The notes below the pieces were generated by a model. That model did no database searches. It saw only the letters and a program-made list of their open reading frames with translations, and was not told the DNA's origin. 45,397 bases of DNA from Gemmatimonadales bacterium. GTDB lineage: Bacteria; Gemmatimonadota; Gemmatimonadetes; Gemmatimonadales; GWC2-71-9. The stretch lies in contig DATLKW010000006.1 in assembly GCA_035538175.1 (NCBI GenBank), positions 1-45,397 on the forward strand. Reading direction: 5' to 3'. Both the position numbers and the translations under genes were made by a program. Shown here piece by piece: positions 3,594 to 44,003 of this stretch. How positions within the stretch are numbered: position 1 is the stretch's first letter; each line of letters begins with the position of its first letter.

Positions 3594-3594
3594 C

Positions 3595-3696
3595 GTGCCC
3601 TCGACCGGCGGCTACATGGTCGCGGCCTACGTCGTGACGGCGGTCATCCTCGTCGCTTACGCCGTGGCGCTCTACCGGCGCGGGAACCGCCCCTAA
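3595..3696 (+). CDS. ccmD: Small single-TM protein, CcmD-like
   Basis: This ORF is not in the track (under 60 aa). It starts at GTG 3595 or ATG 3616 and stops at TAA 3694-3696. The product is VPSTGGYMVAAYVVTAVILVAYAVALYRRGNRP. One hydrophobic helix followed by basic residues, located directly after ccmC, is the usual CcmD layout. Confidence 0.5.
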   Translation: MPSTGGYMVAAYVVTAVILVAYAVALYRRGNRP

Positions 3697-4277
3697 CCGT
3701 CCCGTTTGTCGACGAACAACTCGGCGCGGGCGGCGGACAGGCGTTCCAGGCCGTTCGGGACTTGGGTGGCCCAGAGGTGCAGCGCTTCGTCCGCCGCGGT
3801 GATATCCCCCGCTTGGAACAGGGCCTGGGCGTTGCGCCGCAGGGCGTCGGCTCCGGCGCCCGCCGCGTAGGCGCGCGCGAACCGCGCGGCCGCCTCGGCG
3901 TGGCGGCCGGCGCGGCGATACAGGTCCCCCGCCGCGAGCGCGGCGTCGGGACGCTCCTCGAGGGTCAGCACCTGCTCGTAGGCGACGAGCGCGTCCTGCT
4001 GGCGGAACACCATCTGCCATGCCTCGCCGAGGAGCATCCAGGCGTCGGGGTTGGCGGGGAAGCGCACCGCGCCCTCCTGCGCCACCGCGACTGCCCCCCA
4101 GCGATCCTCGATCGCGCGCCGCAACCGCACCAGGGCGGGGTAGCACTCGGCGAACGCCGGGGTCACGACGCACCCGAGCCGCAGCCACCAGTCGGCGCGC
4201 TTCGGCGCCTCCCGCTGGCTGGCGGCGGCGCGACGCACGGTGAAGCGCACCAGCGCGGCGCGCAGGGATCGGAGCAT
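3693..4277 (-). CDS. TPR-like repeat protein (hypothetical)
   Basis: This is the C-terminal 194 codons of track ORF 3693..5087, starting at ATG 4277 (MLRSLRAALVRF...). Helical repeat pairs such as DAWMLLGEAWQMVFRQQDALVAYEQVL and AAGDLYRRAGRHAEAAARFARAY look like TPR. The upstream part of the track ORF is antisense to hemD. Confidence 0.5.
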   Translation of the reverse strand: MLRSLRAALVRFTVRRAAASQREAPKRADWWLRLGCVVTPAFAECYPALVRLRRAIEDRWGAVAVAQEGAVRFPANPDAWMLLGEAWQMVFRQQDALVAYEQVLTLEERPDAALAAGDLYRRAGRHAEAAARFARAYAAGAGADALRRNAQALFQAGDITAADEALHLWATQVPNGLERLSAARAELFVDKRDG

Positions 4278-4278
4278 G

Positions 4279-4297
4279 ATAGATTGCAACAATCTAT
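4279..4297. promoter_or_regulatory. Perfect 8-3-8 inverted repeat ATAGATTG-caa-CAATCTAT, filling the 18-bp gap between divergent start codons
   Basis: Read directly from the sequence. The flanking starts are ATG 4277 (minus, TPR) and ATG 4296 (plus, hemD). It is an AT-rich island in otherwise very GC-rich DNA. Each arm contains TAGATT, a -10-like hexamer. Confidence 0.5.
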
Positions 4298-5120
4298 GCG
4301 AGACCGTCCGCGATCGCCGCGCGCGACACGCGCGCTCTCGGGTCGGCGGATCGTCGTGACGCGTGCGCGCGATCAGGCGGGCGAGCTCATCCAGGCGCTC
4401 ACGGCCCTCGGCGCCGAGGTCGTCGCCGCGCCCACCATCCGCATCGTCCCCGTCGCCGACTTGCGCACCCTCCGGACCGCCCTCGCCGCGCCCACCCCGT
4501 ACGACTGGATCGTCTTCACGAGCCAGAACACGGTCGAGATCGTGTGCGCCCGGCTGGCCACGTGGGGACTCGCGCCAGCCGATGTCGCGCGCTCGGCGAT
4601 CGCCGCGATCGGGCCCGCGACGGCAGCGGCACTCGGGCGTCACGGGCTCGAGCCCGCACTGGTCCCCGAGCGCTTCGTGGCGGAGGCCGTCGTGACGGCC
4701 CTCGCCGCTCGGGGTCCGCTCGCAGGGACGCGCGTGCTCATCCCGCGGGCGCGCGAGGCCCGCGATGCGCTCCCCGATGGCCTGCGGACTCTGGGCGCCG
4801 TGGTCGACGTCGTGCCCGTCTACGAGACGGCCCGCGAACCGGGCGACGGCTCCGCGCTCGCGGCCGACATCCTCGCCGGGCGGATCGACGCCGTGTCGTT
4901 CACGTCGTCTTCCACGGTGCGCGGGTTCGTGGAGCTCGTGGGGCGGAGCGCGGCGGCCTCGGGCCGTTACGCGGCGGTGGTGATCGGCCCCGTCACGGCC
5001 CGCACGGCGCGCGCCCTGGGGATCGACGTGGCGGCCGAGGCGGCGGACTACACCGTGGGGGGGCTCGTCACCGCGCTCGTGCGCCACTTCGCCGCAGGGG
5101 GCGGGCAGAGCCCCCCGTGA
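4296..5120 (+). CDS. hemD: Uroporphyrinogen-III synthase
   Basis: An in-frame ATG 4296 lies within track ORF 3762..5120. The blocks [42 protein letters not shown] and [13 protein letters not shown] fit the two-lobed HEM4 pattern. The stop overlaps the hemC start (GTGA). Confidence 0.8.
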
Positions 5121-6049
5121 CGGCGTTCACGCTCGGCACCCGCGGGAGCGAACTCGCGTTGCGGCAGGCCGAATGGGTGCGGAACGCGCTCGGGGAGCGC
5201 GGGGTCACCGCCGAGCTCGTGATCATCCGGACGGGTGGCGACGCCGCCGTCGACCGCCCCCTCTACGAGCTCGAAGGCAAGGGGTTCTTCACGAAGGAGC
5301 TCGAAGATGCCCTCTTGGCCGGCACGATCGACGCCGCTGTCCATTCGCTGAAGGATCTCCCGACGACGCTGCCCGAGGGCTTGGCGCTTGCCGCGGTGCC
5401 CCGGCGCGCCCAGCCGACGGAGGTGCTCGTGAGCCGGGACGCGGGGGTCACGTCGCTCGCGGGGCTTCGCGCGGGCGCCACGATCGGCACCTCGAGCCTG
5501 AGGCGCGCGGCGCAGATCCGCTATCTCCGGCCCGATCTCCACGTCGTCGCGTTGCGCGGCAACGTCCCGACGCGCCTCGGCAAGGTCGCCCGGGGCACGG
5601 ACGGCCTCGACGCCGCGCTCGTCGCCGGCGCGGGGCTCGAGCGCCTCGGCCTCGAGGGCCGGATCGCCGCCCGGCTCGATCCCCTGCTCGTGATGCCGGC
5701 CCCGGGCCAGGGGGCCCTCGGGCTCGAAGTCCGGGGCGACGACGCGCGCGCGCGTGGCACGCTCGCGCCCCTCGACGACCCGGCGAGCGCTCGGGACGTG
5801 ACGGCGGAGCGCAGCCTCCTGGCGGCGCTCGAAGGGGGGTGCCAGGCCCCGGTCGCCGCCTACTGCGCCGCGGGCGCCGAGCTCGGGACCGAGGGGCCGC
5901 ATCGGCTGTTCGGGCGCGTGACCGCCCAGGACGGCGCGGTCCAGATTACCGCGTCCGCCCCCCTCGACGAGCGAGCGCCCGCCGCGGCGGGGGTCCGCGT
6001 GGCGAGCTTGCTCCGGGCGGCGGGGGCGTCGAGATTGCTCGGCCGATGA
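5117..6049 (+). CDS. hemC: Porphobilinogen deaminase (hydroxymethylbilane synthase)
   Basis: GTG 5117 is in frame with track ORF 4544..6049. Matching blocks are [41 protein letters not shown] and the cofactor-cysteine context [12 protein letters not shown]. Confidence 0.9.
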
Positions 6050-7017
6050 GCCAGTTCCCGTTGCGCCGCATGCGCCGCCTGCGCCGTACCCCCGCCCTGC
6101 GTCGCCTGGTGCAGGAAACCCACCTCGCCCCGGCCCAGCTCGTGTGGCCGCTCTTCGCGTGCCACGGCCGCGGCGTCCGCCAGGAGGTCGGCCTCCTCCC
6201 AGGCGTCTACCAGACGTCCGTCGATGAGCTCGTCAAGGACGCGGAACGCGCGCACCGCCTCGGCCTGGGTGGGATCATTCTCTTCGGCCTCCCGGCCGCC
6301 AAGGACGCGACGGGCTCGGAAGCGTACGACGAACAGGGCATCGTGCAGGAAGCGGCGCGCGCCGTGAAGCGCGCCGTGCCCGAGCTCCTCGTGATGGGTG
6401 ACGTGTGCCTCTGCGAGTATACCGACCACGGCCATTGCGGCGTGCTCCGCGACGGCGACGTGGACAACGACGCCTCCGTGTACCTGCTCGGGAAGGTCGC
6501 GGTCACGCAGGCGCGGGCCGGGATCGACATCGTGGCGCCGAGCGACATGATGGACGGCCGGGTCGCGGGGATCCGCAAGGCACTCGACGCCGCGGGCTTC
6601 TCGCACGTCCCGATTCTGTCCTATGCCGCGAAGACCGCGTCCGCCTTCTACGGGCCGTTTCGTGAAGCGGCGGGCTCCACGCCCCAGTTCGGGGATCGCC
6701 AGTCGTATCAGATGCAGGGCACGAACGGCGACGAGGCGATGCGGGAAATCGGGCTCGACTTGGCCGAAGGGGCCGACATCGTCCTGGTGAAGCCCGCGCT
6801 GCCCTGCCTCGACCTCATCCGCCGGGCGAAGCAGCAGTTCGGCGCGCCGCTCGCCGCCTATCAGGTGAGCGGCGAGTACGCGATGATCAAAGCCGCCGCG
6901 GCGCGCGGGATGGTGGACGAGGCGCGCGCCATGTGGGAGACGCTCTACGCGATCCGGCGGGCCGGCGCGGACATTATCCTTAGCTACTTCGCGCCGCAGG
7001 TCGCCGAGCAGCTCTAA
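6046..7017 (+). CDS. hemB: Porphobilinogen synthase (delta-aminolevulinate dehydratase), zinc type
   Basis: ATG 6046 overlaps the hemC stop (ATGA). The product begins [25 protein letters not shown] and contains the Cys-rich metal site [14 protein letters not shown], plus [18 protein letters not shown] and YQVSGEYAM. Confidence 0.9.
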
Positions 7018-7035
7018 AGGGCGAGCGCGGCGTCC

Positions 7036-11954: not shown

Positions 11955-12641
11955 CTATCCGAGCGCGAGCCGCGTGGCTGCGAGCGCCACGGCGGCGCCA
12001 CACACCGTGGCGGCGAAGTTGACGCCATCGTTGTCGAGCCATTGCCGCCCCGCCACGAGCCGGACCGGCTCGTGGCACACCGTCCGGGCGCGCTCGAAGC
12101 GCGCGTCGCACGCAGGACACGCGTACTTGCCTTGCAGCGTCGCGCCGAGCAGGGAGTCGAGGACCATCCCCGCCACCCCCGCCCCGGCGCCGATCGCGAG
12201 CCCCGGGGCGGGTCCCGGAGCGGCCACCGCATGGGCCAGCCCGGCGATCGCGACCGCGCCCGCCACCCCACCGAGCGTCCCGAGCGCCGTCACCCCGCCT
12301 GAGGTACCGCGTGCTACGCGGCGGCCGTTCGTGATGAGTCGCGGGGAGAAGGGCGAGAACGCCCCGATCTCGGTCGCCCAGGTGTCCGCCGCGGCAGCGG
12401 CGAGAGCGCCCGCCGCGGCGGGCCAGGAGCCCAGGAGCGCCGCCGCGGCGGCGATGCCGCCGTTCGCGACGACTTGACGCGCCGTGCGCCGCGGGCCTCG
12501 GCGCTCGGCGAGCTGACTGAGCAGACTGCCGGAGAGAAAGAACGCCCCGAGCACCGTGAGCCCCCGCCATCCGAGCCCCCACACGGTGGTCCCACCGACG
12601 ACCGCGGCCGCGACCACGCCGCCGCGGCTGAGCCAATTCAC
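11955..12641 (-). CDS. DUF92 / TMEM19-family integral membrane protein
   Basis: GTG 12641 overlaps the anti-sigma stop (GTGA). The protein is polytopic and Gly/Ala-rich, with AADTWATEIG, GTSGGVTALGTLGG, a Cys cluster CPACD...CHEP and NDGVNFAAT near the C-terminus. From memory these are hallmark blocks of the TIGR00297/DUF92 family. Confidence 0.6.
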   Translation of the reverse strand: MNWLSRGGVVAAAVVGGTTVWGLGWRGLTVLGAFFLSGSLLSQLAERRGPRRTARQVVANGGIAAAAALLGSWPAAAGALAAAAADTWATEIGAFSPFSPRLITNGRRVARGTSGGVTALGTLGGVAGAVAIAGLAHAVAAPGPAPGLAIGAGAGVAGMVLDSLLGATLQGKYACPACDARFERARTVCHEPVRLVAGRQWLDNDGVNFAATVCGAAVALAATRLALG

Positions 12642-12862
12642 TCGTCGATTAGCTCGTCGAGGATGCGGCGCTTCAGCTCCGGAGGCGCGCCGCGACCGCG
12701 GCAGCGCATCTTCACGAACGTGAGAAAGACCTTCTCGAAATCGAAGTGCTCGCCACAGGGCGGACAGTCGGTGAGATGATGCCGGATTTCTTCCTCTACC
12801 TCCGGCGTGAGCTCGCGGTCGAGGTACTCATAGAGGTGCTCCATGCACTCGCGGCAATTCAT
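12638..12862 (-). CDS. rsrA: RsrA-type soluble zinc-binding anti-sigma factor (ZAS, HxxxCxxC)
   Basis: The product is MNCRECMEHLYEYLDRELTPEVEEEIRHHLTDCPPCGEHFDFEKVFLTFVKMRCRGRGAPPELKRRILDEL. It is colinear with actinobacterial RsrA (C..LYE.LD.E....HH...C.PC...E..VK.LV.RCC...P..L). It has no TM segment. The ATGA overlaps the sigma gene stop. Confidence 0.85.
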   Translation of the reverse strand: MNCRECMEHLYEYLDRELTPEVEEEIRHHLTDCPPCGEHFDFEKVFLTFVKMRCRGRGAPPELKRRILDELIDE

Positions 12863-13530
12863 TTCGCGTTCCCCTTGATGTACCCCATGCCCACGGCGTA
12901 CTGGTACAAGCGCTGCTGCAACAGCCGCCGCGCGCGGAACAGGCGCGACTTCACCGTGCCGACAGGGACCTCCTGCACGCGAGCGATCTCCTCGTACGAC
13001 ATCCCCTCTACGTCGCTCAACACCACCGTCTCCCGGAATTGTTCCGGGAGCTCATCGATCGCGCGGAGCACTTCGTCGTCCACGATGCGGTCGAAGAAAG
13101 TGCCCTGCGGATCGTCATCCTGGACTTCGTCAAAGACGGAGAAGGGTTCGATCGCATCGATGTCGACCGTCTCGGGATGCCGCGTGCGCCGACGGTATTC
13201 ATTAATGAACGTGTGGCGCAGAATCGTGAGCAGCTAACCCTTGGCGTTCGTCCCCCGTTCGAACTGATGCCAGGCGCGGTACGCCTTGAGCATCGTCTCC
13301 TGTACCAGGTCGTCGGCCTCGGCGGGGTTGCCGGTCAGCCGCAGCGCGACCCGATACAGACTGTCCAGGTGCACCAGCGCTTCGCGCTCGAAGCTCGCCC
13401 GCTTGTCCTTGTCGGCCTCGGCGGACGGGGTCGACGTGGACGGAGGTGGGGGCGCCGGGGGCGCCGGAGGGACCGGGGGGGCCGGGGGGGCCGGGCGGGC
13501 CGGGGGGCCGGGGGGTAGAGTACCGCTCAT
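12859..13530 (-). pseudogene. sigR: SigR/SigH-type ECF sigma-70 factor interrupted by one in-frame TAG (13234-13236)
   Basis: Track ORFs 13234..13782 (region 2: [25 protein letters not shown]) and 12859..13083 (region 4: VPVGTVKSRLFRARRLL) are in the same frame. My own translation across the gap reads ...GTNAKG*LLTILRHTFINEYRRRTRHPETV... The TAG sits where SigR/SigH proteins have the W of KAWLYRILTN. The likely start is ATG 13530 ([10 protein letters not shown]...). Confidence 0.8.
13441..13516. repeat. Imperfect G/C-only short repeats (GGGGCGCCGG / GGGGGCCGGG units)
   Basis: Read directly from the sequence. On the minus strand this encodes the Pro-rich N-terminal extension [25 protein letters not shown] of the sigma factor. 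Confidence 0.7.
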
Positions 13531-13540
13531 AACGCTCCGT

Positions 13541-13566
13541 AACCTCTCCCGGTGCGGCCGGGTTCC
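13541..13566 (-). promoter_or_regulatory. Candidate ECF (SigR-type) autoregulatory promoter GGAAC-N18-GTT
   Basis: The minus strand reads GGAAC CCGGCCGCACCGGGAGAG GTT, followed by 10 nt and then ATG 13530. From memory, the SigR/SigH consensus is GGAAT-N18-GTT. Confidence 0.45.
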
Positions 13567-13582: not shown

Positions 13583-14206
13583 GTGTACGTTTCGCGCGCC
13601 GTGGTCCATAGCATCGTGCCGCTCGCGGTCCTCGAGGCGGTCAAGAACCTCGACACGCCGGTCGAGGACGGTCTGTCGGAGTTCGCCGAGGAGCTGTTGT
13701 CGAAGCGACTCGGGCTATCCGAGACGGTGGCGATGCAACTGCGGGAATACGAAGCCATGGCGCGGCGCAATGCCGCCGCCAATGAGGGGCACGTCGAAGC
13801 CCTGCTACGGCTCGTGGGACGGCGGCCCGATGCCGACCTCGTGTTCGCCGACGCGGGGCGCCGCGCGGCCCGACGGGCGGTGCGCCGCCTCTTCGGCCTG
13901 ACGCGGCTCGCCGCGAAGGGCGCTCCCCGACTGTTCGGCTACGCCGCCGCGCGCCGCGCGGCCCGCGCCGTCTTGGGCGCCGATTTGAAGCGCGAGCAGC
14001 ACATCCCCGTCGCCTGGGTGCGGGACGCGCTGGCGGTGCACGCGACGCCCGACGGGTCCGCCTGCGCCCTCTACGGCACGGGCTTGAGCGAGCTGCTCCG
14101 CCTGCTCGTCGGCTTCGAGGGCGCCATGCTCCACGTCTCCTGCCGCGCGCGCGGCGGGACGGTGTGCGAGTGGCGGGCCGCCCCGCCCGATCCCCGACAC
14201 CACTGA
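13583..14206 (+). CDS. Hypothetical protein with a V4R-like C-terminal domain
   Basis: Track ORF (GTG start). The C-terminus [39 protein letters not shown] resembles the C-x4-G...E/H-x2-C-x2-G-x3-C-x-F/W pattern of V4R small-molecule-binding domains. Confidence 0.45.
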
Positions 14207-15412: not shown

Positions 15413-16276
15413 TCACAACGCCGCGACGACGAGCCCGCCCCACACCGCCGCCCCGAGCGCCACGTGCGCGGCCGCGAGCGGCCGGGGGAGCTGCAACAGC
15501 ACCATCGCCGCGGCCAGGGTCACCTGGGCGCCCACGAGGCCCACCACCCCCCACACGGCGCGTCGCTTCGCGCGCACAGCCCACCAGATCACGAAGGCGA
15601 AGAGCGCATAGGCGAGCACCCGGTGGGTCCAGTGAATGTGCTGGAGCGCGTTGCCGCTCGGGACGAGCTGCCCATTGCAGAGGGGGAACCCGAGACAGGC
15701 GCTCGCCGCCCCGGTGTTGGCGGTGAGCGCGCCGGCTAGAACGGTTGCGAATCCCAGCACCAGGGCCACGAGCCCCGTGGGGCCGGGGTCCCTCAGCCAC
15801 CCCTCACTTCGCTCGCGCGCCACGACGAGCAGCGTCGCCAGCAGCAGCATGGCGGTCGCGAAATGCAGGACCACCGTCCACGGCGGGAGGCGCAGCCTGA
15901 CCGTGACGGCACCGAGCAGCACCAGGACGACGAGGAGGCCGAGCGCCGCGTAGGGCAGGGCCGACGGCAGCCCGGGGGCGGCGGGATCGCGGGAGGCGTT
16001 GGCGCCGACGGACGCTCTTCTGTGCCTGCCCCGCAAGCGCCCGGCGTAGACCGCGAGCGCGAGTACGAGTCCCGATACCGCGGCCGCCACCAGCCGATGC
16101 GCGTACTCAATGAGCGTCGGGACATCGAGCGGCGGCAGGAGTCGGCCATTGCACAAGGGCCAATGCTCGCCGCACCCGAGCCCCGAGCCGGTAATACGCA
16201 CGATCGCCCCGAGGACGATGAGGAGATAGGTGAACGTCACCGCGGTCCAAGCGAGCGGCGTGAAGCGTCGCGTCAT
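15413..16276 (-). CDS. ctaA: Heme A synthase (COX15/CtaA family)
   Basis: Matching blocks are LLIVLGAIVRITGSGLGCGEHWPLCNG..LIEYAHRL, and a second half with SACLGFPLCNGQLVP...HIHWTHRVLAY. This gives the duplicated Cys-pair plus His motif of CtaA. Confidence 0.85.
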   Translation of the reverse strand: MTRRFTPLAWTAVTFTYLLIVLGAIVRITGSGLGCGEHWPLCNGRLLPPLDVPTLIEYAHRLVAAAVSGLVLALAVYAGRLRGRHRRASVGANASRDPAAPGLPSALPYAALGLLVVLVLLGAVTVRLRLPPWTVVLHFATAMLLLATLLVVARERSEGWLRDPGPTGLVALVLGFATVLAGALTANTGAASACLGFPLCNGQLVPSGNALQHIHWTHRVLAYALFAFVIWWAVRAKRRAVWGVVGLVGAQVTLAAAMVLLQLPRPLAAAHVALGAAVWGGLVVAAL

Positions 16277-16375
16277 GGGTGCGGAAATGTATACCGCCCG
16301 CTCGCGGCCACGAGGCGTGGTTTCAGTCTTCCAACGAACTGCAACGCGGGCCGGGGCCGCGAGGGCGGCGGCCGG

Positions 16376-17899
16376 CTAGGGGCGAGACTGCCCGAGCGTG
16401 CTGTGGCGCCGTCCGTACCGGAAATAGATGACCAGCCCGAGCGCCAGCCATACGAACAGGCGGATCCAGGTGTCGAGCGGGAGCGTGAGCATCAGGCCCA
16501 GACAGGTCAGGATGCCGAGGAGCGGGACCAGCGGCACGAAGGGCGTACGGAACGGGCGCTCCAGGTCGGGCCGCGTGTGCCGGAGCACCCACACGCCCGC
16601 GCACACCAGGACGAACGCGAGCAGCGTCCCAATGTTGACCCACGTGCCCAGGAGCTGCAGCGGCAAGAGCCCGGTGGCCACACAGACCGCGATGCCGGTA
16701 TAGATCGTCGAGAGATACGGCGTCCGGAACCGCGGATGGACCCGGCCCGCCCAGTGCCCGAGCAGGCCGTCGCGCGACATCGCGTAGAACACGCGGGACT
16801 GTCCCAGGAGCATCACGAGGATCACCGAGCCGATGCCGAGGACCGCCCCGACGTCGATCGACACCCGGATCCACCAGGATGCCCCGATCCGCTCCAGCGC
16901 GTACGCCATCGGCGCGGGGTTGTTGAGCTCGCCGTAGGGGACGATGCCCACGAGCACGGCCGAGACGACGACGTAGAGCAGCGTGCAGACCGCCAGCGAT
17001 CCGAGAATCCCAATCGGCATGTCGCGCTGGGGGTTCTTCGATTCCTGCGCCGCAGTCGAGACCGTGTCGAAACCGATATAGGCGAAAAACACCAACCCCG
17101 CCCCCCGCAGCACCCCCGACCAGCCGTACGTGCCCCACTCACCGGTGTTCGGGGGGATGAAAGGCCTCCAGTTGGCAGGGTTCACGTGCGACAGGCTCAC
17201 GAGCACCACCAGGAGCACGATCGCGACCTTGAGGATGACGATCACGGTGTTGACCCGCGCCGACTCCCTGATCCCGATCACTAGGACGGCGGACATCGCG
17301 ACCACGATGAGCACGGCCGGGAGGTTGATGAGCGCGCCGGTGAGGTTGAGCCCCGGGTGGGCGCACCCGGCGATGTGAGCGGCGACCTGGGAGGCCGTGC
17401 ACAACTGCGTGGGCGGCGCGGTGAGGGTCGGCGGGATCCGCACCCCGAACAGCGCCAGCAGCGAGACGAAGTGGGCCGACCACCCGACGCCCACGGTCGC
17501 GGCGCCGGCGGCGTACTCGAGCACCAGGTCCCACCCGATGATCCACGCCGCGAACTCGCCCATCGTGGCGTAGGCGTAGGTGTAGGCGCTGCCCGCGACG
17601 GGCACGGCGCTCGCCATCTCGGCGTAACAGAGACCCGCAAACGCGCAGGCGACCCCGACGAGAATCATCGATAGCGGCACCGCCGGCCCGGCGTACAGCG
17701 CGGCGACCTGCCCCGTGATCACGAAGATGCCGGCGCCGATCACGGCGCCGATACCGAGCGTGACGAGATTGAGCGGGCCGAGCGCCCGCGTCAGGGCGTG
17801 GTCGCCCGCCGCCTCCGCCTCGGCGCGGAGGGTCCCGATCGGCTTGGTGGCGAAGAGGGTCACCCCAGCAATCTGCGGGACGGGTGCCTCTCGGCCCAA
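16376..17899 (-). CDS. APC-superfamily amino acid permease (cationic amino acid transporter-like)
   Basis: Matching blocks are LNLVTLGIGAVIGAGIFVITG, FAGLCYAEMASAVPVAGSAYTYAY and FIGFDTVSTAAQESKNPQRDMP. The start is uncertain: TTG 17899 or GTG 17863. Confidence 0.8.
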   Translation of the reverse strand: MGREAPVPQIAGVTLFATKPIGTLRAEAEAAGDHALTRALGPLNLVTLGIGAVIGAGIFVITGQVAALYAGPAVPLSMILVGVACAFAGLCYAEMASAVPVAGSAYTYAYATMGEFAAWIIGWDLVLEYAAGAATVGVGWSAHFVSLLALFGVRIPPTLTAPPTQLCTASQVAAHIAGCAHPGLNLTGALINLPAVLIVVAMSAVLVIGIRESARVNTVIVILKVAIVLLVVLVSLSHVNPANWRPFIPPNTGEWGTYGWSGVLRGAGLVFFAYIGFDTVSTAAQESKNPQRDMPIGILGSLAVCTLLYVVVSAVLVGIVPYGELNNPAPMAYALERIGASWWIRVSIDVGAVLGIGSVILVMLLGQSRVFYAMSRDGLLGHWAGRVHPRFRTPYLSTIYTGIAVCVATGLLPLQLLGTWVNIGTLLAFVLVCAGVWVLRHTRPDLERPFRTPFVPLVPLLGILTCLGLMLTLPLDTWIRLFVWLALGLVIYFRYGRRHSTLGQSRP

Positions 17900-18158
17900 C
17901 GACGCCGGGACGAGCGGGATTCAGAGCGGGACTAACGGCGCCGGGATCAGCCGGCGGTACCTCACCCCGCGCCCGTTCGCGAGACTGACTGGGCGCCAGG
18001 GGTGGAGACGAGCGCTAGATCGCGGGCCGGCCATGATGGCCCCCCGATCAGGCCGGTTCGCAGCTCGGGTGCAGGTTATATCGCCTCGAGCTGGTTTCAG
18101 TGGTACCGCATCCTCACACGCGCTATCGAGCCACACGGGTTCACAGCCGATCCAGGGT

Positions 18159-20189
18159 TCAGTAGGTCTCGAACACGGCGGTGGTGTCCTTCAGCCCCTG
18201 TCGCGCTCGGTAGCGCAGCCACACGCGATTCGGGAAGCGCTCCCGGAGCTCCTCGTTGCGCGGGCCCAGATCGCGGGCGAACACGACGGGGCCGCCGAGC
18301 GAGCCGTCGCTTTCGACGCTCGCCAGCGCAAGGAAGGGAGCGTAGGGTGTGCTGCCGAGGGTATCGCGAGCGATTTCCTCACGACACGCCGGTGTAAGGG
18401 CGCCACCCTGTGTTAAGAAAATTGCTTGGTCGGCCTGAAGGCCCGCCACGGCGTAGAGCGGTGCGCGGGGTCGTGTGGCGGCGATGATGCGGGCGTGGAG
18501 ACTAGCTGTATCGGCGGCCCCCCGGCCCTCCTCGGCATCGAGCGCGGTCTGGAGCTGGCAGGCGTCGGAGCTGGACAACAGCCGGTCGGCGTCGCCGGGG
18601 GTCAGACCGAGGGCGCGGAGGCGCGCGACCAGCCGGGCCCGCCACGCTTCGTGCACGAACACGAGGGCGTGGTGGAGGCGGGCGGCGTCCACCTGCCCCG
18701 CGATGTCGGTCTTCAGCTTGGTGCGGCCTTCGTGGTAATAGGACGCCCGCATCCGCACGCTCGAGACGCCCGTGGGGATGAGCCACGCGCACAGCGCACA
18801 GAGGGGCACGATGAGGAATGTTGCCCGTCGCAGCGTCGCCCCGTGTAGGTGCTGCGCTACGAGCCCGGGGGCGCGGGCGGCGAGGATGACGAATGCCGGT
18901 ACCGCGGTATAGAGAAACCGCGGGCCAGCGAAGAAGCTATCGGCAGCCCAATACGGGGCGTATCCGAGCATGAGGACGCCGATCAGGCCGATGAGCAACG
19001 CGTCCCAGCGGGTCGGCAGGCGCAGCGAGACGAGTGCGGCGACGATGGGGATGAGGCCCGGCAGCGGCCACTCGAACAGATAGCGATTCAGCCGCATCAA
19101 GTTCGCGGACGCGAGGATGACCGCACGCGTCGGTGTAAGCGGGACGCCAAGCGGATCGACGTGAAACCCGAGCTGCTGCCCCGGGCCGTACAACGCTTCG
19201 TAGGCAAACAACAACGGAGCGCCGGTCGTTCGGGCGTTGGCATAGAGCAACCACGACACCGGCAGCGCGCCCGCGGCGACCTGCGCGAGCAGCGACCGCG
19301 CGCGCGCGGGCTCGCGCGCGAGCACCCACAGCTGGAACACCCCGATCAGCACGGCTACCGCGATGGCGTCGAGTGGCCGGATCGTCGCCAGGCCCCCGAC
19401 GGCGAGCCCGATCAACGCTGCCGCCCCCGACGTACGGCGAGGATCCGGCGCCGTGGTCCAGTGCGTCAGCGCGGCGAGGGCGAGCGTGGCGAGTGCGAGC
19501 GAGCCGACATGGTTCATCTCGCTCGCGCCCATGATGAGGACGAACGGCGACAGCGCGAACAGTAGCGCAGCGGCCCGCCCGGCTCCCTCCCCGAACGCCG
19601 CCGCCGCGAAGCGGTACAGGCCGCACGCGGTCACGGCCGTGAGGACCGGATTCACGAGCCACGTGGCCCGGAGCGCCATCCCGAGGGCGAGGAGAGCAGG
19701 GCCGCCGACGGGATACATCGAGTACCAACGGCCCCCGCGATCGAGCACACCGGTGATCGAGAAGAACTCGGGATGTGGTTCCCCGACGGCTGCCAGGTGG
19801 CCGGCAAGGAGAATGCGAGCGTGGAACCGCTGGGCCATCTCGTCTTGCGCAAACGGGGCTCGGGCGAAGCAATAGACGGCGAAGAGGGCGGTGAGCGCGA
19901 GCACCCCGCTCGCCAGGAGCGCCTGGAAGAGGCGCGGCGAGGGTGCCAGGACGGCGCCGACCGCGCGGACGCTCCAGCGATCGAGGCGCTCCCCAAGGAG
20001 CCGCGCGACGACCAGCGCGAGGAGCACACTGCCCCCGCCTACGACCAGCCACCAGCCGACCGCCGCCCCCCACCACGGCACCTGCGGCGTGCCGCTCAGC
20101 ACGTTTGCGACGGGCACGAGCCCGAGGGCCGCGAGCGTCACGGCGGCGCCGAGGGGAGCAAGCCTCGCGGCGCGTGAAGGCTCAGACAT
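18159..20189 (-). CDS. Large polytopic membrane protein, GT-C fold glycosyltransferase-like (ArnT/PMT_2-like), paralog 1
   Basis: 676 aa. The first-loop acidic motif is FAQDEMAQRFHARILLAG, followed by 10 or more TM segments and a roughly 200-aa soluble C-terminal domain. It is alignable with the protein at 23384..25030. Confidence 0.6.
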   Translation of the reverse strand: MSEPSRAARLAPLGAAVTLAALGLVPVANVLSGTPQVPWWGAAVGWWLVVGGGSVLLALVVARLLGERLDRWSVRAVGAVLAPSPRLFQALLASGVLALTALFAVYCFARAPFAQDEMAQRFHARILLAGHLAAVGEPHPEFFSITGVLDRGGRWYSMYPVGGPALLALGMALRATWLVNPVLTAVTACGLYRFAAAAFGEGAGRAAALLFALSPFVLIMGASEMNHVGSLALATLALAALTHWTTAPDPRRTSGAAALIGLAVGGLATIRPLDAIAVAVLIGVFQLWVLAREPARARSLLAQVAAGALPVSWLLYANARTTGAPLLFAYEALYGPGQQLGFHVDPLGVPLTPTRAVILASANLMRLNRYLFEWPLPGLIPIVAALVSLRLPTRWDALLIGLIGVLMLGYAPYWAADSFFAGPRFLYTAVPAFVILAARAPGLVAQHLHGATLRRATFLIVPLCALCAWLIPTGVSSVRMRASYYHEGRTKLKTDIAGQVDAARLHHALVFVHEAWRARLVARLRALGLTPGDADRLLSSSDACQLQTALDAEEGRGAADTASLHARIIAATRPRAPLYAVAGLQADQAIFLTQGGALTPACREEIARDTLGSTPYAPFLALASVESDGSLGGPVVFARDLGPRNEELRERFPNRVWLRYRARQGLKDTTAVFETY

Positions 20190-20322
20190 GATCTCGCTTG
20201 CGCCTCGTGAGGCCGACGCTCCGCAGGGAGCGACGAACGCCGCAGCGCTCGGGGCCGGGTCCCATGCGCTGCAACGCCTTGGCCCAGCGGCGAGCCCACT
20301 CGCCGGCTGGCGACGCAGTCAT
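20182..20322 (-). CDS. Possible small basic protein (46 aa), translationally coupled to the GT-C gene
   Basis: This ORF is not in the track. GGAGGTGG lies 5 nt upstream of ATG 20322. The product is MTASPAGEWARRWAKALQRMGPGPERCGVRRSLRSVGLTRRKRDHV. Its TGA (20182-20184) overlaps ATG 20189 of the downstream gene (CATGTCTGA). Confidence 0.3.
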   Translation of the reverse strand: MTASPAGEWARRWAKALQRMGPGPERCGVRRSLRSVGLTRRKRDHV

Positions 20323-20427: not shown

Positions 20428-21567
20428 TCACGCCGAACGCACGCTAGCCGCGTACACCGCCACCATCTTGGCGGCAATGGCCGTCCAATCGTAGCGGGCC
20501 GCAGCTGCCTGAAGCGCGCTCCGCGCCGTGGATGGATCGCGTCCGAGCAACCGGTCGCACGCTGCCGCGAGCGCCATGGCATTCGACGCAGCGACGAGCC
20601 CTTTGAGGGGCGTGTCGAGCAGCTCGACCGCCGCATTCTCGGGCTCATCACAGACCACCACCGGGATCCCGCAGGCCCACGCCTCGAGCACGACCGTCCC
20701 GAACCCCTCGCGCTTCGACGGCAATGCCAGCACCCGGCTCGCCTTGAGACGCGCGTACACGTCCTCCGGCGTTCGCAGCTGCCCCGCGAAGCAAATGCAG
20801 CCATCTACCCCTAGCGTCTTCGCCAAGCGCTCCAGATTCTGCCGTTCGGGACCATCGCCGATAATGAGCAACGTCGTGCCCGGCCGCCGGGCGCGCAGGT
20901 AGGGCATCGCTTGGATTAGTAAGTGCACCTGCTTGTGCGCCAGCAGACGCCCTGTGTACACGATATCGGCCGATGCCGGACTCGCGGCCACTACGCCGAT
21001 GCGCCTTGTATCGACTCCGCTCGGCACCACCACGATCCGATCCGGCTGCGCGCCCGCCGCCACCAGACGTCGTTTGGTAAAATCGCTGATGGCCACGATC
21101 GTCGGTGAGCACCGCAGCGCCAGCCGTTCGAAGAACTTCCCAACGATGCCCGCGCGACCGAGGTACTCGTCCCAGTAGTCGCCCCAGTATTCGAGCCAGG
21201 TGACGACAAGAGGGCGCCGCTTGACGAGGCTCAGGAGCCGAGCCACCGGCACGGAGAGGTAGGGGAAGCTCGCAACGTCCCACACATCCTCCTCGCTGCG
21301 GAGCAGCGCCCAGCACAGGCCCGCGGCAAACACGACAGGCTCGAGCAGGCTGCGCCGCCCGCGGCGCGTATAGAGAGGCAGAGCCGGAGCCACGGCCACA
21401 TACCGGCAGTGCGGCAACTGACCACTACGATCCTTGCGCCAGTAGTTCAGCCCGTAGAGCGTGACTTCATTGCCCGCTTGAGCGTGGGCGGCGATTCCGT
21501 ACGTGCGACGTTCGGCCCCTCCCATTACGTACGGGTACACCGCGTCGTAAATCAGTGCGACCCGCAT
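20428..21567 (-). CDS. GT4-family (group 1) glycosyltransferase
   Basis: The N-terminus is MRVALIYDAVYPYVMGGAERRTYGIA. The C-terminal half has ...ICFAGQL...LALPSKREGFGTVVLEAWACGIPVV, the EX7E-type motif. Confidence 0.8.
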   Translation of the reverse strand: MRVALIYDAVYPYVMGGAERRTYGIAAHAQAGNEVTLYGLNYWRKDRSGQLPHCRYVAVAPALPLYTRRGRRSLLEPVVFAAGLCWALLRSEEDVWDVASFPYLSVPVARLLSLVKRRPLVVTWLEYWGDYWDEYLGRAGIVGKFFERLALRCSPTIVAISDFTKRRLVAAGAQPDRIVVVPSGVDTRRIGVVAASPASADIVYTGRLLAHKQVHLLIQAMPYLRARRPGTTLLIIGDGPERQNLERLAKTLGVDGCICFAGQLRTPEDVYARLKASRVLALPSKREGFGTVVLEAWACGIPVVVCDEPENAAVELLDTPLKGLVAASNAMALAAACDRLLGRDPSTARSALQAAAARYDWTAIAAKMVAVYAASVRSA

Positions 21568-21651
21568 CGTCTCGGTTGCGCTGGGCTGGGTCGCCGCCGC
21601 GTCGGCGCCGTCCGGGCTCCGGCCGAGGCACCGCGGCGCCTCGCCACGCTG

Positions 21652-22884
21652 CTACACACTCGAGGCCGGCGTTCTCGTCTTGAGCCGCATGACGTACATG
21701 AGGAAGCTCGCGACCAGTAGCTCCAGCCCGCTCGCGAACAGGGTCGTGGCGAGGGAGAGGTAGGGCACGGCCGCGAGCGCGCCGAAACCCGAGGCGGCCC
21801 AGCGGCCGATCACCGCCGCCCACATCCCGGCCCCGGTCACCGCGAGGAGCATCGCGGCGATCCGCACGGGACCGTCCCCGGCTTGCCCGACCGCCCGCGC
21901 GGCTGAGCTGTGCCGGAATCGCACGCCGATCGACCAGGCAAAAGTCGCAGACACGAGGCCCAGCACCAGGAGCGTCGACCCACCCAAGGCCGCGGCCAGG
22001 CCGGCTAGGTTCGTGTGCACGTCCCATCTCCGAAAGAGCACCGTGCGGGGGCCCGACAACAGGAGAACCTGCAGCGCCGTGCCGAAGAGGTAGGAAAGCA
22101 GCCCCGGCCACAAAAGGAGCGAGGGCGACAAGACCAGCATGTACTCCGTGTGTCGCCACGCGTCCCGCAACGGCCGGAGTTTCGATAGGCCGACGCGTGC
22201 GCTGTAAGGAATGCTTAACTCTTGCACGCGCATTTCTTGATCGAGGGCCTTGACCACCATCTCCGTGGCGAACTCCATGCCCGGCATGCTCAAGCCCAGC
22301 GCAGCCACGCGGTCGCGGCGGATCGCGCGCATGCCGCAATGAATGTCCCGCAAGGGGGCGCCAAACAGGAAGCGCGTCATGCCCGAAAGGACTGGGTTCC
22401 CGAGGTAGCGATTGAGCAGCGGCATCGAGCCACGCTCCATGAGGCCCCCGAACCGGTTCCCCAGTACCACGTCGGCGCCGCCGTCGCGCATCACCCGCAC
22501 GAACTCGCCGACCATCTCCACAGGATAGGTGCCGTCGGCGTCGAGCAGCAGCACGAACTCTCCGAACGCCTCCCGCAGCCCCCGTAGGCAGGCGGCGCCA
22601 TAGCCGCGACGTGCCTCCACGACCACTCGCGCCCCTTCGCGTCGCGCAATCTCCCCAGTGCGATCTGTAGAGCCGTTGTCAATGACTACCACCTCGCCTT
22701 GCAGGGCCTCTCGGGCTAGCGCAGCCCGCGCCCGCTCCACACAGCGAGCGATTGCCGCTTCCTCATTGAGGGCTGGGAAGACGATCGAGACAGTGGGCGC
22801 GTCCTCGTCTCGCCCCACGGGCGCTGCCGAGCTCTGGGCCATCGCGCTCCCCGGCTCAGGGCTGGACTTGAAGGCGAGGCTCAT
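21652..22884 (-). CDS. GT2-family glycosyltransferase with a C-terminal 4-TM domain (polyprenyl-phosphate sugar synthase / DPM1-GtrB-ArnC-like)
   Basis: Matching blocks are VSIVFPALNEEAAI, VVVIDNGSTDRT and LLLDADGTYP (DxD). These are followed by hydrophobic segments. ATG 22884 (MSLAFKS) is preceded by GGGGGAG. The track ORF extends to 22950. Confidence 0.75.
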   Translation of the reverse strand: MSLAFKSSPEPGSAMAQSSAAPVGRDEDAPTVSIVFPALNEEAAIARCVERARAALAREALQGEVVVIDNGSTDRTGEIARREGARVVVEARRGYGAACLRGLREAFGEFVLLLDADGTYPVEMVGEFVRVMRDGGADVVLGNRFGGLMERGSMPLLNRYLGNPVLSGMTRFLFGAPLRDIHCGMRAIRRDRVAALGLSMPGMEFATEMVVKALDQEMRVQELSIPYSARVGLSKLRPLRDAWRHTEYMLVLSPSLLLWPGLLSYLFGTALQVLLLSGPRTVLFRRWDVHTNLAGLAAALGGSTLLVLGLVSATFAWSIGVRFRHSSAARAVGQAGDGPVRIAAMLLAVTGAGMWAAVIGRWAASGFGALAAVPYLSLATTLFASGLELLVASFLMYVMRLKTRTPASSV

Positions 22885-22987
22885 GCGACGCTCCCCCGCG
22901 CGGCTCGCGTGGCGAGCTCGGAGATGGGTGCCCCAGTGCAAAGCCCGCAATCTTATGGAGTACGGAGCTTATAGCAACGGGAATCAT

Positions 22988-23003: not shown

Positions 23004-23383
23004 CGACGAGGAGTCGGTTTTCAAAGCGTCGCGGTACCTAAAGGGCCATCCCACGGCCAGCAGGTGCACGGCGTCCTCGCGGCCTCAGTCGGCGCGTGGC
23101 GCGCAAGCGGCGAGCGGAGACCAGACGCCTGCCCCCCCGGCCGGGCAGCTGCACTTGTGAAAGGGTGTATGTTCTTTGCATTGGGGTCCGCCCGTATATT
23201 GCCGGGGCCCACGCCCGGGAGCGCGCCTGTGCTCGGTGACGACCGGCAGCACGCCACCCTGCCGAGCGGCGTGTCGCCCGCTCGCTGCGTCCTCTTATCC
23301 CGAGCGTCGCGCACCGGCCACCCGAACGGCGGCCACCGCGGAACCGGGCTCCTGGCACCCGTCTCAGCGCGCCAGCGAGCAGC

Positions 23384-25030
23384 GTGCGCCCCACCCCTGC
23401 CGGGCCGAGGCACTCACGTAGGCTCACATCGCATCTCGTGATCGCAGACCGCGCAACGCGTCTCCTCGAGTCTCGTTGGGCGCCTCTGCTGTGCGGTGTC
23501 GCCACCGCCCTGGTCACATGGTGGGTGTGGGGATCGCTGCGCCAGGTCACGATCGTCGGCGACGAGGCGGCCTACGTTCTCCAGGCCAAGGTGTTTGCCT
23601 CTGGGCGCTGGACCGCGCCCGGCCGTCCGCTGCCCGAGTTCTTCGAGCAGTACCACGTACTCGTCACACCGATCCTGGCGTCCAAGTACTGGCCCGGTCA
23701 CTCGCTCCTCATGGTGCCCGGCATCTGGCTGGGGCTGCCGGGCCTCGTACCGGTGCTGCTCAGTGGCCTGACCGGCGCCCTGTGCTTCGCCCTGGCACGG
23801 CGGCTCGCAAATCCCTGGGTCGCAGCCGTGACGTGGTTCGTCTGGACAACCGCCTCGGGCAACATGCGCTGGCGGGCATCGTATTACTCCGAGGTCACGA
23901 CTGGCGCGCTCTGGCTTGTCGGCTGGTGGGCCTTGCTCGACTGGTACGAGACGGGGCGGCGAGGCGCGCTCCTCACTCTGGCCGCGTGCGTGGGGTGGAG
24001 TGCGGTGACGCGACCGCTCACCGCGCTCGCGTTCGCCATCCCGACCGCCGTCGTCGTCCTGCGGCGCTGCTACGCGCGGCGCACGTGGCGGGATCTCGGG
24101 CTCGCGTTGGCGCTGGGAGGGGTGGTGCTCGGCTTGATCCCCTTGTGGAGTGCCCGCACGACAGGCGATTGGCGCACCACCCCGTATGTCCTCTACGCGC
24201 GGCTCTATTTCCCCCTCACGCTCGACACCACGCCTGAGCGGCCCCTGCCCCCGGACATGCAGAGCTTGCTGGATGGTTTGAATGACCTCGTCCGGGGGCA
24301 TACGCTTCGGGCGCTTCCAACCGAGCTCTTGAAGCGGATTCGCCAGATCGGAGTCGACATGTGGCACGGCTGGCGCCTCCTCCTCCTGCCGTTCGCGATC
24401 ATTGGTCTTTCAGCGCTGCCCGCCGGAGCGAGCTATGGTGTGGCGACGGCGGCGTCCCTCGTCCTTGCCCATCTGTGGATGGCACACTTCCCATCCTGGT
24501 CGCTCTACTACCTCGAGCTGCAGCCCGTGCTGGCGTTCCTCACTGGGCTCGGGGTTGGGGTGGTTGCTCCGCGGCTGACGAAACGGTTGGGCGTCCCAGG
24601 GAGCCGGGTGACCGTGGTACTCTGCTGCAGCGGCGCGCTCGCGCTGTCCTTCCTCGATCTCCGAGCGACGGGTCGCACGCTGGGGAACCGCCAGGCCTAT
24701 TTCCGCAGGTTCGCGGTACTTGTCGAGCGCATTCGCGATCCCGAGGCCATCGTGTTCGTCCGGTACTCTCCCTACCACAATGTCAATGCGAGCTTGATTG
24801 CGAATCGGCCTGACCTGGACCGGGCTCACGCCTGGATCGTCTATGACCGAGGAGCGGACAACTCGCGCCTGATCGCGCTTGCTCCGAGCCGCACGCCGTA
24901 CTTATACGACGAGGCAACAAATAGTCTGTCGGTGCTCCCGCGAGCGACGGCGCCTCACGCCGGTGACGCGCGTCCACCCGTGACGCGCCAGGCGCCCGAC
25001 AAGAACGCTGCAGGAGATGGGCGTCGCTAA
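23384..25030 (+). CDS. Large polytopic membrane protein, GT-C fold glycosyltransferase-like (ArnT/PMT_2-like), paralog 2
   Basis: The first-loop motif is VGDEAAYVLQAKVFASGRW...PLPEFF, which matches QDEMAQRFHARILLAGHL...PHPEFF in paralog 1. It has many TM segments and a soluble C-terminal domain. The start is uncertain: GTG 23384 or GTG 23438. Confidence 0.6.
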   Translation: MRPTPAGPRHSRRLTSHLVIADRATRLLESRWAPLLCGVATALVTWWVWGSLRQVTIVGDEAAYVLQAKVFASGRWTAPGRPLPEFFEQYHVLVTPILASKYWPGHSLLMVPGIWLGLPGLVPVLLSGLTGALCFALARRLANPWVAAVTWFVWTTASGNMRWRASYYSEVTTGALWLVGWWALLDWYETGRRGALLTLAACVGWSAVTRPLTALAFAIPTAVVVLRRCYARRTWRDLGLALALGGVVLGLIPLWSARTTGDWRTTPYVLYARLYFPLTLDTTPERPLPPDMQSLLDGLNDLVRGHTLRALPTELLKRIRQIGVDMWHGWRLLLLPFAIIGLSALPAGASYGVATAASLVLAHLWMAHFPSWSLYYLELQPVLAFLTGLGVGVVAPRLTKRLGVPGSRVTVVLCCSGALALSFLDLRATGRTLGNRQAYFRRFAVLVERIRDPEAIVFVRYSPYHNVNASLIANRPDLDRAHAWIVYDRGADNSRLIALAPSRTPYLYDEATNSLSVLPRATAPHAGDARPPVTRQAPDKNAAGDGRR

Positions 25031-38579: not shown

Positions 38580-38607
38580 TTGACAGGGCTCGGCCGCCAA
38601 CTATGTT
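38580..38607 (+). promoter_or_regulatory. Near-consensus sigma-70 promoter TTGACA-N16-TATGTT
   Basis: The -35 element TTGACA is at 38580-38585, followed by a 16-nt spacer and the -10 element TATGTT at 38602-38607. The -10 directly abuts the first ATG of the pilB ORF. Confidence 0.5.
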
Positions 38608-40340
<1,733 letters not shown>

Positions 40341-40344
<4 letters not shown>

Positions 40345-41501: not shown

Positions 41502-41520
41502 GCCCGCGGAGGAGGACTAG

Positions 41521-42726: not shown

Positions 42727-42756
42727 CGTCACCCGATGCGGCGGACGGCGGCGCGA

Positions 42757-42779
42757 GGCCTCCCGCACGGCGGGGGGCC
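42757..42779 (+). terminator. Weak hairpin after pilC
   Basis: GGCCTCCCG-cacgg-CGGGGGGCC is followed by only TT, so it is a poor U-tract. Confidence 0.3.
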
Positions 42780-42809
42780 TTGCCGTCAGAGGAAGGGGGA
42801 CGGACGAGG

Positions 42810-43979: not shown

Positions 43980-44003
43980 CCGGCGCCCCACGGCGGGTGG
44001 TCG

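What the first reader, a model, noticed from the sequence alone, without database searches (positions are those of the whole stretch)
13234..13236. In-frame amber codon at the invariant Trp of the SigR/SigH-like sigma factor
The minus-strand frame from ATG 13530 to the stop at 12859 encodes a complete ECF sigma, except for TAG at 13234-13236. It reads ...[32 protein letters not shown]..., whereas actinobacterial SigR/SigH read ...GTNLKAWLYRILTNT(F/Y)INSYRKK... A single G-to-A change (TGG to TAG) explains it. TAG is used as a normal stop by neighbouring genes (the TonB receptor, the lptF-like gene, pilT, pilC), so genome-wide reassignment is unlikely. The cognate anti-sigma gene and all downstream genes are intact. 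The options are:
- a very recent inactivating mutation
- a sequencing or assembly error
- low-level readthrough acting as a regulatory throttle
- expression of the downstream genes from another promoter
Basis: seen in the sequence. Interest (0 to 1): 0.7.

Follow-up and report, generated by a model that had tools for sequence, protein, structure and literature searches.

The report
Private nonsense codon in sigma gene
One soil-metagenome genome carries a stop codon in place of an invariant tryptophan in a stress sigma-factor gene, but near-identical and related sequences all read tryptophan, so it is an ordinary knock-out allele or a consensus error, not a programmed signal.

Summary
On the minus strand, ATG 13530 to TGA 12859 encodes a 223-codon ECF sigma factor, and codon 99 (13236..13234) is TAG. 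The window is a whole 45,397-bp contig of an NCBI TPA MAG (Gemmatimonadales), and its record annotates the 98-aa N-terminal fragment.

The stop is private to this contig:
- An independently assembled contig (Logan, SRR8500488) is 99.8% identical and reads GGA TGG where the window reads GGT TAG.
- A 98.3% relative reads GGC TGG.
- All 81 other loci examined have Trp here.
- The 98-aa fragment is a singleton among about 15 billion proteins.
- No amber allele turned up in the JGI metagenome contigs.

TAG is a genuine stop for at least seven Pfam-supported genes in the window. There is no tRNA, no Rfam hit and no unusual RNA structure 3' of the stop.

The gene, its RsrA-like anti-sigma partner and a conserved GGAAC-N18-GTT promoter form a normal SigR/SigH-type module under strong purifying selection. 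The TAG is therefore either a very recent null allele (about 0.55) or a consensus error (about 0.38). Only the reads can separate these two. Programmed readthrough or recoding is unsupported. Interest is low.

The parts
12859..13530 (-). SigR/SigH-like ECF sigma factor gene, 223 codons, interrupted at codon 99
   Evidence: Translation. Pfam sigma-2 and sigma-4 domains. Best PDB match is Mtb SigH, E 3.5e-42. NCBIfam TIGR02947 SigH_actino is the best hit at 173 bits, below its 251-bit cutoff. The intact allele is encoded by L001 and L085.
13234..13236 (-). In-frame amber codon (TAG) replacing the invariant Trp99
   Evidence: TGG at this codon in 81/81 other loci. TGG in the 99.8%-identical L001 and the 98.3%-identical L085.
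13237..13237 (-). Third base of Gly98. It is T in the window, A in L001 and C in L085. This is the second difference from the nearest allele, 2 nt from the nonsense change.
   Evidence: If three mismatches fell independently over 1481 columns, two would lie within 2 nt with probability 0.0085.
13541..13566 (-). GGAAC-N18-GTT, a SigR/SigH-type promoter-like motif ending 10 nt upstream of the ATG
   Evidence: Found at the same position, with differing spacers, in the window, L001, L085, L002, L003, L004 and L008. The SigR consensus GGAAT ... GTTG is quoted in PMC5005934. The count of matches in the window alone is not above chance.
12638..12862 (-). RsrA-like zinc-binding anti-sigma factor (74 aa, H29-x3-C33-x2-C36). 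It is intact and its start overlaps the sigma stop (ATGA).
   Evidence: Pfam zf-HC2, E 8.9e-11. NCBIfam TIGR03988 antisig_RsrA, 73 bits against a 62.5-bit cutoff. PDB RsrA 5frf, E 2.4e-8. The protein is identical in L001.
11955..12641 (-). DUF92 membrane protein gene, intact. Its start overlaps the anti-sigma stop, so it is probably in the same operon.
   Evidence: Pfam DUF92, E 2.4e-52, profile positions 14-251 of 251. The same gene order occurs in L085.
13448..13515 (-). 9-nt tandem repeat encoding the proline-rich N-terminal extension of the sigma factor
   Evidence: TRF finds period 9 and 7.7 copies. There is a 9-nt indel relative to L085. N-terminal length varies among cluster members.

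Best explanation
The TAG is a plain, very recent loss-of-function allele of an otherwise normal, strongly conserved SigR/SigH-type ECF sigma factor gene. It is carried by the haplotype that won the consensus in this Gemmatimonadales MAG.

Shown:
- TGG became TAG at the invariant Trp99, together with a neighbouring synonymous change (GGA/GGC to GGT).
- The rest of the gene and operon are identical to an intact allele.

Inferred:
- Translation stops after 98 residues. The product keeps only the proline-rich N-terminus and regions 2.1-2.2. It lacks the -10 recognition part of sigma-2 and all of sigma-4, so it cannot direct transcription.
- The operon's conserved GGAAC-N18-GTT promoter is of the type read by this sigma factor itself, so positive autoregulation is lost.
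- Translation of the overlapping anti-sigma gene (ATGA junction) and of DUF92 is probably reduced.
- The cell then lacks the inducible thiol/oxidative-stress response, which is a tolerated state in SigR/SigH-type mutants of cultured bacteria.

Nothing about the site is programmed. It is the kind of segregating null allele seen for stress sigma factors such as rpoS in E. coli.
For: Privacy of the stop:
- L001 (Logan, SRR8500488) is identical over 1483 nt except for 3 bases and reads GGA TGG.
- L085 (98.3% identical) reads GGC TGG.
- 81/81 other loci have TGG.
- The 98-aa fragment (HVH08196.1) is a singleton 90% cluster, whereas the intact protein's cluster has 433 members.
- No TAG allele was found in JGI metagenome contigs, even with synonymous positions left free.

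Recent origin under purifying selection:
- Against L085, apart from the two changes at codons 98-99, the sigma gene shows only 4 substitutions, all at third codon positions that leave the protein unchanged, plus one in-frame 9-nt indel. No decay is visible downstream of the stop.

Standard genetic code:
- TAG ends the amino-acid permease, GT2, MurJ, TonB receptor, LptF, PilT and PilC genes at the ends of their domains.
- There is no tRNA in the window.

A real variant is plausible:
- If the MAG belongs to the SMAG catalogue, as its closest TPA relatives do, it is a per-sample Illumina/MEGAHIT assembly.
- A 45-kb contig then implies enough depth that the consensus usually reflects the majority allele (inference).

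Precedent:
- Amber and other nonsense alleles of rpoS are known in E. coli stocks and isolates (PMC2700278).
Against: No reads were available, so the allele has not been shown to exist in DNA molecules. The two changes lie 2 nt apart in an otherwise almost identical 1.5 kb (p about 0.0085 under independence). That pattern fits a single multi-nucleotide mutation but equally fits a localized read or consensus error. Only one assembly in the public collections carries the TAG. My rough base-rate estimate gives real allele and consensus error similar prior weight.
Confidence: 0.55

Rival explanations
1. The TAG is a sequencing or assembly artefact. The organism's real sequence is GGN TGG, and GGT TAG entered the MAG consensus from a locally poorly covered or error-bearing set of reads.
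For: An independent assembly of the same population, 99.8% identical, reads TGG. The window differs there by two substitutions within 3 nt, a clustered pattern typical of local read errors and improbable for independent mutations (p 0.0085). GGT at codon 98 and TAG at codon 99 are each unique among 82 sequences. The allele occurs in one assembly only.
Against: Short-read de Bruijn assemblers need an erroneous k-mer path to be seen repeatedly and to out-weigh the true path. That is unlikely inside a 45-kb contig (inference from the MEGAHIT pipeline, and only if the MAG is from that catalogue). I recognised no other broken gene in the window: same-frame adjacent ORFs are separate genes (GT2/GT4 and permease/COX15), apart from one low-GC3 pair without Pfam hits (42786-44003) that I did not resolve. 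Codon 98 position 3 is naturally variable among strains (T/C/A), so one of the two differences could be ordinary polymorphism.
Confidence: 0.38
2. The amber codon is functional. Low-level readthrough, or termination followed by re-initiation giving a split sigma factor, throttles the sigma factor dose.
For: The base after the stop is C. From general knowledge, TAG-C is among the weaker termination contexts in E. coli. The rest of the gene shows no decay, although a very young null allele predicts the same.
Against: The stop is not conserved in any relative, not even at 99.8% identity. No RNA structure beyond chance lies 3' of the stop (z -0.89) and there is no Rfam element. Near-cognate decoding of UAG mainly inserts Gln or Tyr rather than the invariant Trp (general knowledge). 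The next in-frame ATG/GTG/TTG is at codon 150, so a restart product would lack regions 2.3-2.4.
Confidence: 0.04
3. TAG is decoded as an amino acid in this organism, through a reassigned code or a resident amber suppressor tRNA.
For: None beyond the in-frame TAG itself. The rest of the MAG could not be inspected for a tRNA with a CUA anticodon.
Against: At least seven Pfam-supported genes in the same contig end at TAG exactly where their domains end, and the next gene follows. There is no tRNA in the window. Relatives encode TGG rather than TAG at this site.
Confidence: 0.01

Closest known systems
SigR-RsrA (Streptomyces coelicolor) / SigH-RshA (Mycobacterium tuberculosis) thiol-oxidative-stress ECF sigma / zinc anti-sigma modules
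   Same: A two-domain ECF sigma whose best PDB match is Mtb SigH (E 3.5e-42). The Trp lies in the ...GTN.K.WL..IL... motif. A small soluble HxxxCxxC anti-sigma lies immediately downstream and passes NCBIfam's RsrA model. A GGAAC-N18-GTT promoter-like motif lies upstream, conserved in relatives and matching the published SigR consensus GGAAT/GTTG (PMC5005934).
   Different: The host is Gemmatimonadales, not Actinobacteria. The sigma factor scores below the curated SigH_actino cutoff (173 against 251 bits). It has a proline-rich, length-variable N-terminal extension. The anti-sigma is only 74 aa. The gene in this contig is broken by TAG.
rpoS amber (codon 33) and other nonsense alleles segregating in Escherichia coli stocks and isolates
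   Same: A premature stop in a stress sigma factor gene is present in some strains and absent in near-identical ones, while the rest of the gene is intact (PMC2700278).
   Different: The rpoS alleles are confirmed in cultured strains, recur, and are linked to selection under nutrient limitation. The codon-33 amber lies near the N-terminus, where downstream re-initiation can give an active protein (general knowledge, Subbarayan and Sarkar 2004). Here the allele is seen once, in a MAG consensus. It sits in the middle of sigma-2, so neither fragment could work.
Internal-stop pseudogenes and consensus errors in metagenome-assembled genomes
   Same: A single in-frame stop in one assembly, with intact orthologues everywhere else. 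The annotation splits off a fragment (the 98-aa N-terminal product is on record).
   Different: Nothing differs materially. This is the category it belongs to.

Membership tests
ECF (group 4) sigma-70 family | Only sigma-2 and sigma-4 domains are present, with no sigma-3 or region 1.1 | tested here: met
   Pfam Sigma70_r2 at residues 54-117 and Sigma70_r4_2 at 152-204, with nothing else. NCBIfam TIGR02937 sigma70-ECF scores 96.9 bits against a 42.9-bit cutoff.
SigR/SigH (actinobacterial SigH, TIGR02947) subfamily | Score above the curated family cutoff | tested here: not met
   TIGR02947 is the best NCBIfam hit but scores 173.2 bits against a 251.55-bit cutoff. The gene is SigH-like, not an equivalog.
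SigR/SigH (actinobacterial SigH, TIGR02947) subfamily | Closest experimentally characterised relative is SigH/SigR | tested here: met
   PDB best hits are Mtb SigH 6jcy_F and 5zx2_F (E 1e-42). S. coelicolor SigR sigma-2 (1h3l) scores E 1.5e-26.
SigR/SigH-type module | Cognate ZAS anti-sigma (HxxxCxxC plus an N-terminal Cys), cytoplasmic, encoded immediately downstream | tested here: met
   The 74-aa ORF overlaps the sigma stop. It carries C3/C6 and H29-x3-C33-x2-C36. It matches zf-HC2, TIGR03988 RsrA above cutoff and RsrA 5frf at E 2.4e-8.
SigR/SigH-type module | Autoregulatory promoter GGAAT-N18-GTT upstream of the sigma gene | tested here: inconclusive
   GGAAC-N18-GTT at 13566..13541 is conserved in position in 7 close loci with variable spacers. 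The motif count in the window is not above chance, and transcription was not measured.
SigR/SigH-type module | Redox (disulfide) control of anti-sigma binding, and a regulon of thioredoxin / low-molecular-weight-thiol genes | not testable with these tools
   This needs biochemistry or the full genome. No thioredoxin genes with the motif lie in the window.
Programmed stop-codon readthrough / recoding site | The in-frame stop is conserved among orthologues | tested here: not met
   0 of 81 other loci have a stop here. The truncated product is a singleton cluster. No TAG allele occurs in JGI metagenome contigs.
Programmed stop-codon readthrough / recoding site | A stimulatory RNA structure or element 3' of the stop | tested here: not met
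   The 110-nt fold has z -0.89 against shuffles. There is no Rfam match in the window.
Alternative genetic code (TAG sense) | TAG is not used as a terminator in bona fide genes of the same genome | tested here: not met
   TAG terminates the permease, GT2, MurJ, TonB receptor, LptF, PilT and PilC genes.

The most novel reading that the evidence does not exclude
The amber allele is real and is kept in part of the population as a dosage throttle. Rare readthrough, or termination followed by restart at the adjacent CTG, would supply a trickle of sigma factor while the intact anti-sigma keeps it silent. That would give a heritable low-responder state of the thiol-stress regulon.
Probability: 0.03. 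Interest if true: 0.55.

Novelty: already known. Interest (0 to 1): 0.1.

Why it matters
It matters little beyond annotation hygiene. The locus should be treated as one sigR/sigH-like gene with an internal stop (a pseudogene or a suspect base), not as two short 'sigma factor' proteins. If the allele is real, it is one more natural null allele of a stress sigma factor segregating in a soil population. That is of minor interest for population genomics of Gemmatimonadales. A side observation has more value: a complete SigR/RsrA-type module with its promoter motif is conserved in this non-actinobacterial clade.

Tried and rejected
- I searched JGI metagenome contigs for the locus with both variable bases masked, and for any amber allele with synonymous positions left free. 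Both searches returned zero hits, so this source gave no further copies of the strain.
- I tried to trace SRR8500488 in the literature and in the SMAG supplements. Nothing was found, so I could not establish whether it is the MAG's source run.
- I tested whether the double change could be templated by a nearby direct or inverted repeat (quasipalindrome or gene conversion). No 8-11-mer containing the mutated bases occurs elsewhere in the window. Rejected.
- I looked for an internal sigma-70-type promoter that could drive the downstream genes independently. None was found by the simple scan.
- I looked for a suppressor tRNA, a known RNA element and a readthrough-stimulating structure. None was found.
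- I checked whether other same-frame adjacent ORF pairs in the window are also genes split by TAG. The pair 20428-21651 / 21652-22968 is two different glycosyltransferases (GT4 and GT2). The pair 15413-16375 / 16376-17920 is COX15 and a permease. The pair 42786-43574 / 43575-44003 has no Pfam hits and low GC3, so I left it unresolved.
- The question was settled by DNA comparison with close relatives.

Full report
**Observation.** Reading the minus strand from ATG 13530 to TGA 12859 gives 223 codons with one internal stop, TAG at 13236..13234, codon 99. With Trp restored, the protein has the two ECF sigma domains: Sigma70_r2 at residues 54-117 and Sigma70_r4_2 at 152-204.

**Source of the window.** Exact-sequence look-ups show that the window is a complete 45,397-bp contig of an NCBI third-party-annotated MAG named 'Gemmatimonadales bacterium'. 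The 98-aa N-terminal fragment is deposited as HVH08196.1 ('sigma factor'). The downstream gene is HVH08194.1 ('mycothiol system anti-sigma-R factor'), followed by the DUF92 gene, HVH08193.1. So the TAG is in the public record.
- The closest species-representative relatives are SMAG soil MAGs and Angelo-type grassland MAGs.
- SMAG MAGs were built per sample from Illumina reads with MEGAHIT (PMC10640626).
- That this MAG is itself from SMAG is my inference, not a shown fact.

**What the gene is.**
- The best solved relative is M. tuberculosis SigH (5zx2_F, E 3.5e-42). S. coelicolor SigR sigma-2 (1h3l) follows at E 1.5e-26.
- NCBIfam's SigH_actino model is the top hit but scores below its curated cutoff (173 against 251 bits). 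The gene is SigH/SigR-like rather than an equivalog.
- The 74-aa gene that overlaps the sigma stop (ATGA) has C3/C6 and H29-x3-C33-x2-C36. It matches zf-HC2, passes the RsrA equivalog model (73 against 62.5 bits) and aligns to RsrA 5frf.
- GGAAC-N18-GTT (13566..13541) ends ten bases upstream of the ATG. The same motif sits at the same place, with different spacer sequences, in seven close loci.
- That motif matches the published SigR consensus, GGAAT at -35 and GTTG at -10 (PMC5005934). Its count in the window alone is not above chance, so the support comes from positional conservation.
- Together these describe an ordinary autoregulated SigR/RsrA-type module, here in Gemmatimonadales.

**Is the stop shared by anything else? 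No.**
- Looking up the exact anti-sigma protein returned one further contig, L001 (Logan assembly of SRR8500488, 1483 bp). There the sigma gene is called as an intact 223-aa protein.
- L001 and the window are identical over the shared 1481 columns except at three bases. One is near the contig end (window 13771). The other two are at the site: GGT TAG in the window against GGA TGG in L001.
- A second close relative, L085 (ENA JX_forest, 98.3% identical over 2.2 kb), reads GGC TGG.
- Across the 81 other loci fetched, at 32-100% protein identity, the codon is TGG in all 81. It is invariant in an alignment of members of the 90% cluster.
- The truncated 98-aa product is a singleton cluster among about 15 billion proteins, whereas the intact protein's cluster has 433 members.
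- Two scans of the JGI metagenome contigs found no copy of the strain and no amber allele in relatives, even with synonymous positions left free.

**Selection and age.**
- Between the window and L085, apart from the two changes at codons 98-99, the sigma gene has four substitutions, all at third codon positions. The L085 protein is identical to the restored window protein wherever the two align, so all four are silent.
- The only other difference is one in-frame 9-nt indel in the proline-rich repeat.
- Downstream of the stop the window is identical to L001. The core of the protein is 86-89% identical across the cluster, with most columns invariant.
- The gene is therefore under strong purifying selection, and the stop has had no time to be followed by decay.

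**Genetic code and recoding.**
- TAG terminates at least seven domain-supported genes on the same contig: amino-acid permease, GT2, MurJ, TonB-dependent receptor, LptF, PilT and PilC.
- Two same-frame adjacent ORF pairs separated by TAG are separate genes (GT2/GT4 and permease/COX15), not further interrupted genes. A third such pair (42786-44003) has no Pfam hits and low GC3, and I left it unresolved.
- The window has no tRNA and no Rfam match. The 110 nt around and after the stop fold no better than shuffles (z -0.89).
- The next in-frame canonical start after the stop is at codon 150. A restart product would lack the -10 recognition part of sigma-2.
- From general knowledge, near-cognate suppression of UAG inserts mainly Gln or Tyr, not the invariant Trp.
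- Programmed readthrough, a split sigma factor and a reassigned code are therefore all unsupported.

**What remains.** Two ordinary explanations are left, and I cannot separate them without reads.
1. A real, very young null allele.
   - It has a good precedent in the amber and other nonsense alleles of rpoS in E. coli (PMC2700278).
   - It fits the way short-read assemblers pick the majority path in a well-covered contig.
2. A local consensus error.
   - The point that keeps this alive is that the window differs from its nearest allele at two bases 2 nt apart, in 1.5 kb that is otherwise almost identical.
   - If the three mismatches were independent, such clustering would have a probability of about 0.0085.
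   - GGT and TAG are each unique among the 82 sequences.

Some further points bear on both. The third base of codon 98 is naturally variable (T/C/A in the three closest strains; C, A and G in others). A single multi-nucleotide mutation would produce the same pattern. I found no nearby repeat that could have templated the change. I put the real allele at about 0.55 and the artefact at about 0.38.

**Consequence if real (inferred).**
- The 98-residue product cannot bind promoter DNA.
- The SigR-type promoter loses its activator.
- Translation of the overlapping anti-sigma gene, and probably of DUF92, drops.
- The strain lacks the inducible thiol-stress response.
- No independent sigma-70-like promoter inside the operon was detected by a simple scan.

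**Verdict.** It is a known, ordinary kind of event, either a nonsense allele or an assembly error, in a known kind of module. Interest is low.

Noticed in passing
window 13448-13515 (minus strand; sigma codons about 6-28): A 9-nt tandem repeat (GGGGGGGCC, 7.7 copies) encodes a proline-rich N-terminal extension ([25 protein letters not shown]) of the sigma factor. It differs by a 9-nt indel between the window and L085. The extension varies in length (197-223 aa proteins) among 90%-identical relatives. It recalls the N-terminally extended SigR' isoform of Streptomyces (general knowledge).
   Followed up: partly
window 13541-13566 (minus strand), and L001, L085, L002, L003, L004, L008: The conserved GGAAC-N18-GTT motif ends only 10 nt before the ATG. 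A transcript started from it would be leaderless or nearly so. This suggests that a complete autoregulated SigR/RsrA-type module is conserved in this Gemmatimonadales clade, outside Actinobacteria.
   Followed up: partly
window 13583-14206 (+): A divergently transcribed 207-aa gene (HVH08197.1, hypothetical) has no Pfam or NCBIfam hit. It is conserved at about 98% DNA identity in three Logan soil contigs (L082-L084). In those three contigs the next called gene starts at its last base.
   Followed up: no
window 18162-20318 (-) and 23240-25027 (+): Two long ORFs (719 and 596 aa) have a coding-type GC3 but no Pfam match. They are embedded in a GT2/GT4/GT4/MurJ-like flippase/methyltransferase cluster, possibly polysaccharide polymerase or chain-length proteins.
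   Followed up: no
window 3594-7035: In this very GC-rich stretch (about 0.76), long ORFs on both strands have similar GC3 (for example 3594-5120 + and 3693-5126 -). Gene calls there are ambiguous from composition alone.
   Followed up: no
window 38584-45397: A type IV pilus gene set: a PilB-like ATPase with an MshEN domain, PilT, PilC, and a PilS-like sensor cut by the contig end. Upstream are LptF/LptG and a 1165-aa TonB-dependent receptor with a CarboxypepD_reg domain.
   Followed up: no
window 13771 against L001 position 10: The only other difference between the window and the SRR8500488 contig (A against G) lies 10 nt from the end of the Logan contig. That is where a unitig would break at a strain-variant bubble, which hints that more than one haplotype of this population is present in that sample.
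   Followed up: no
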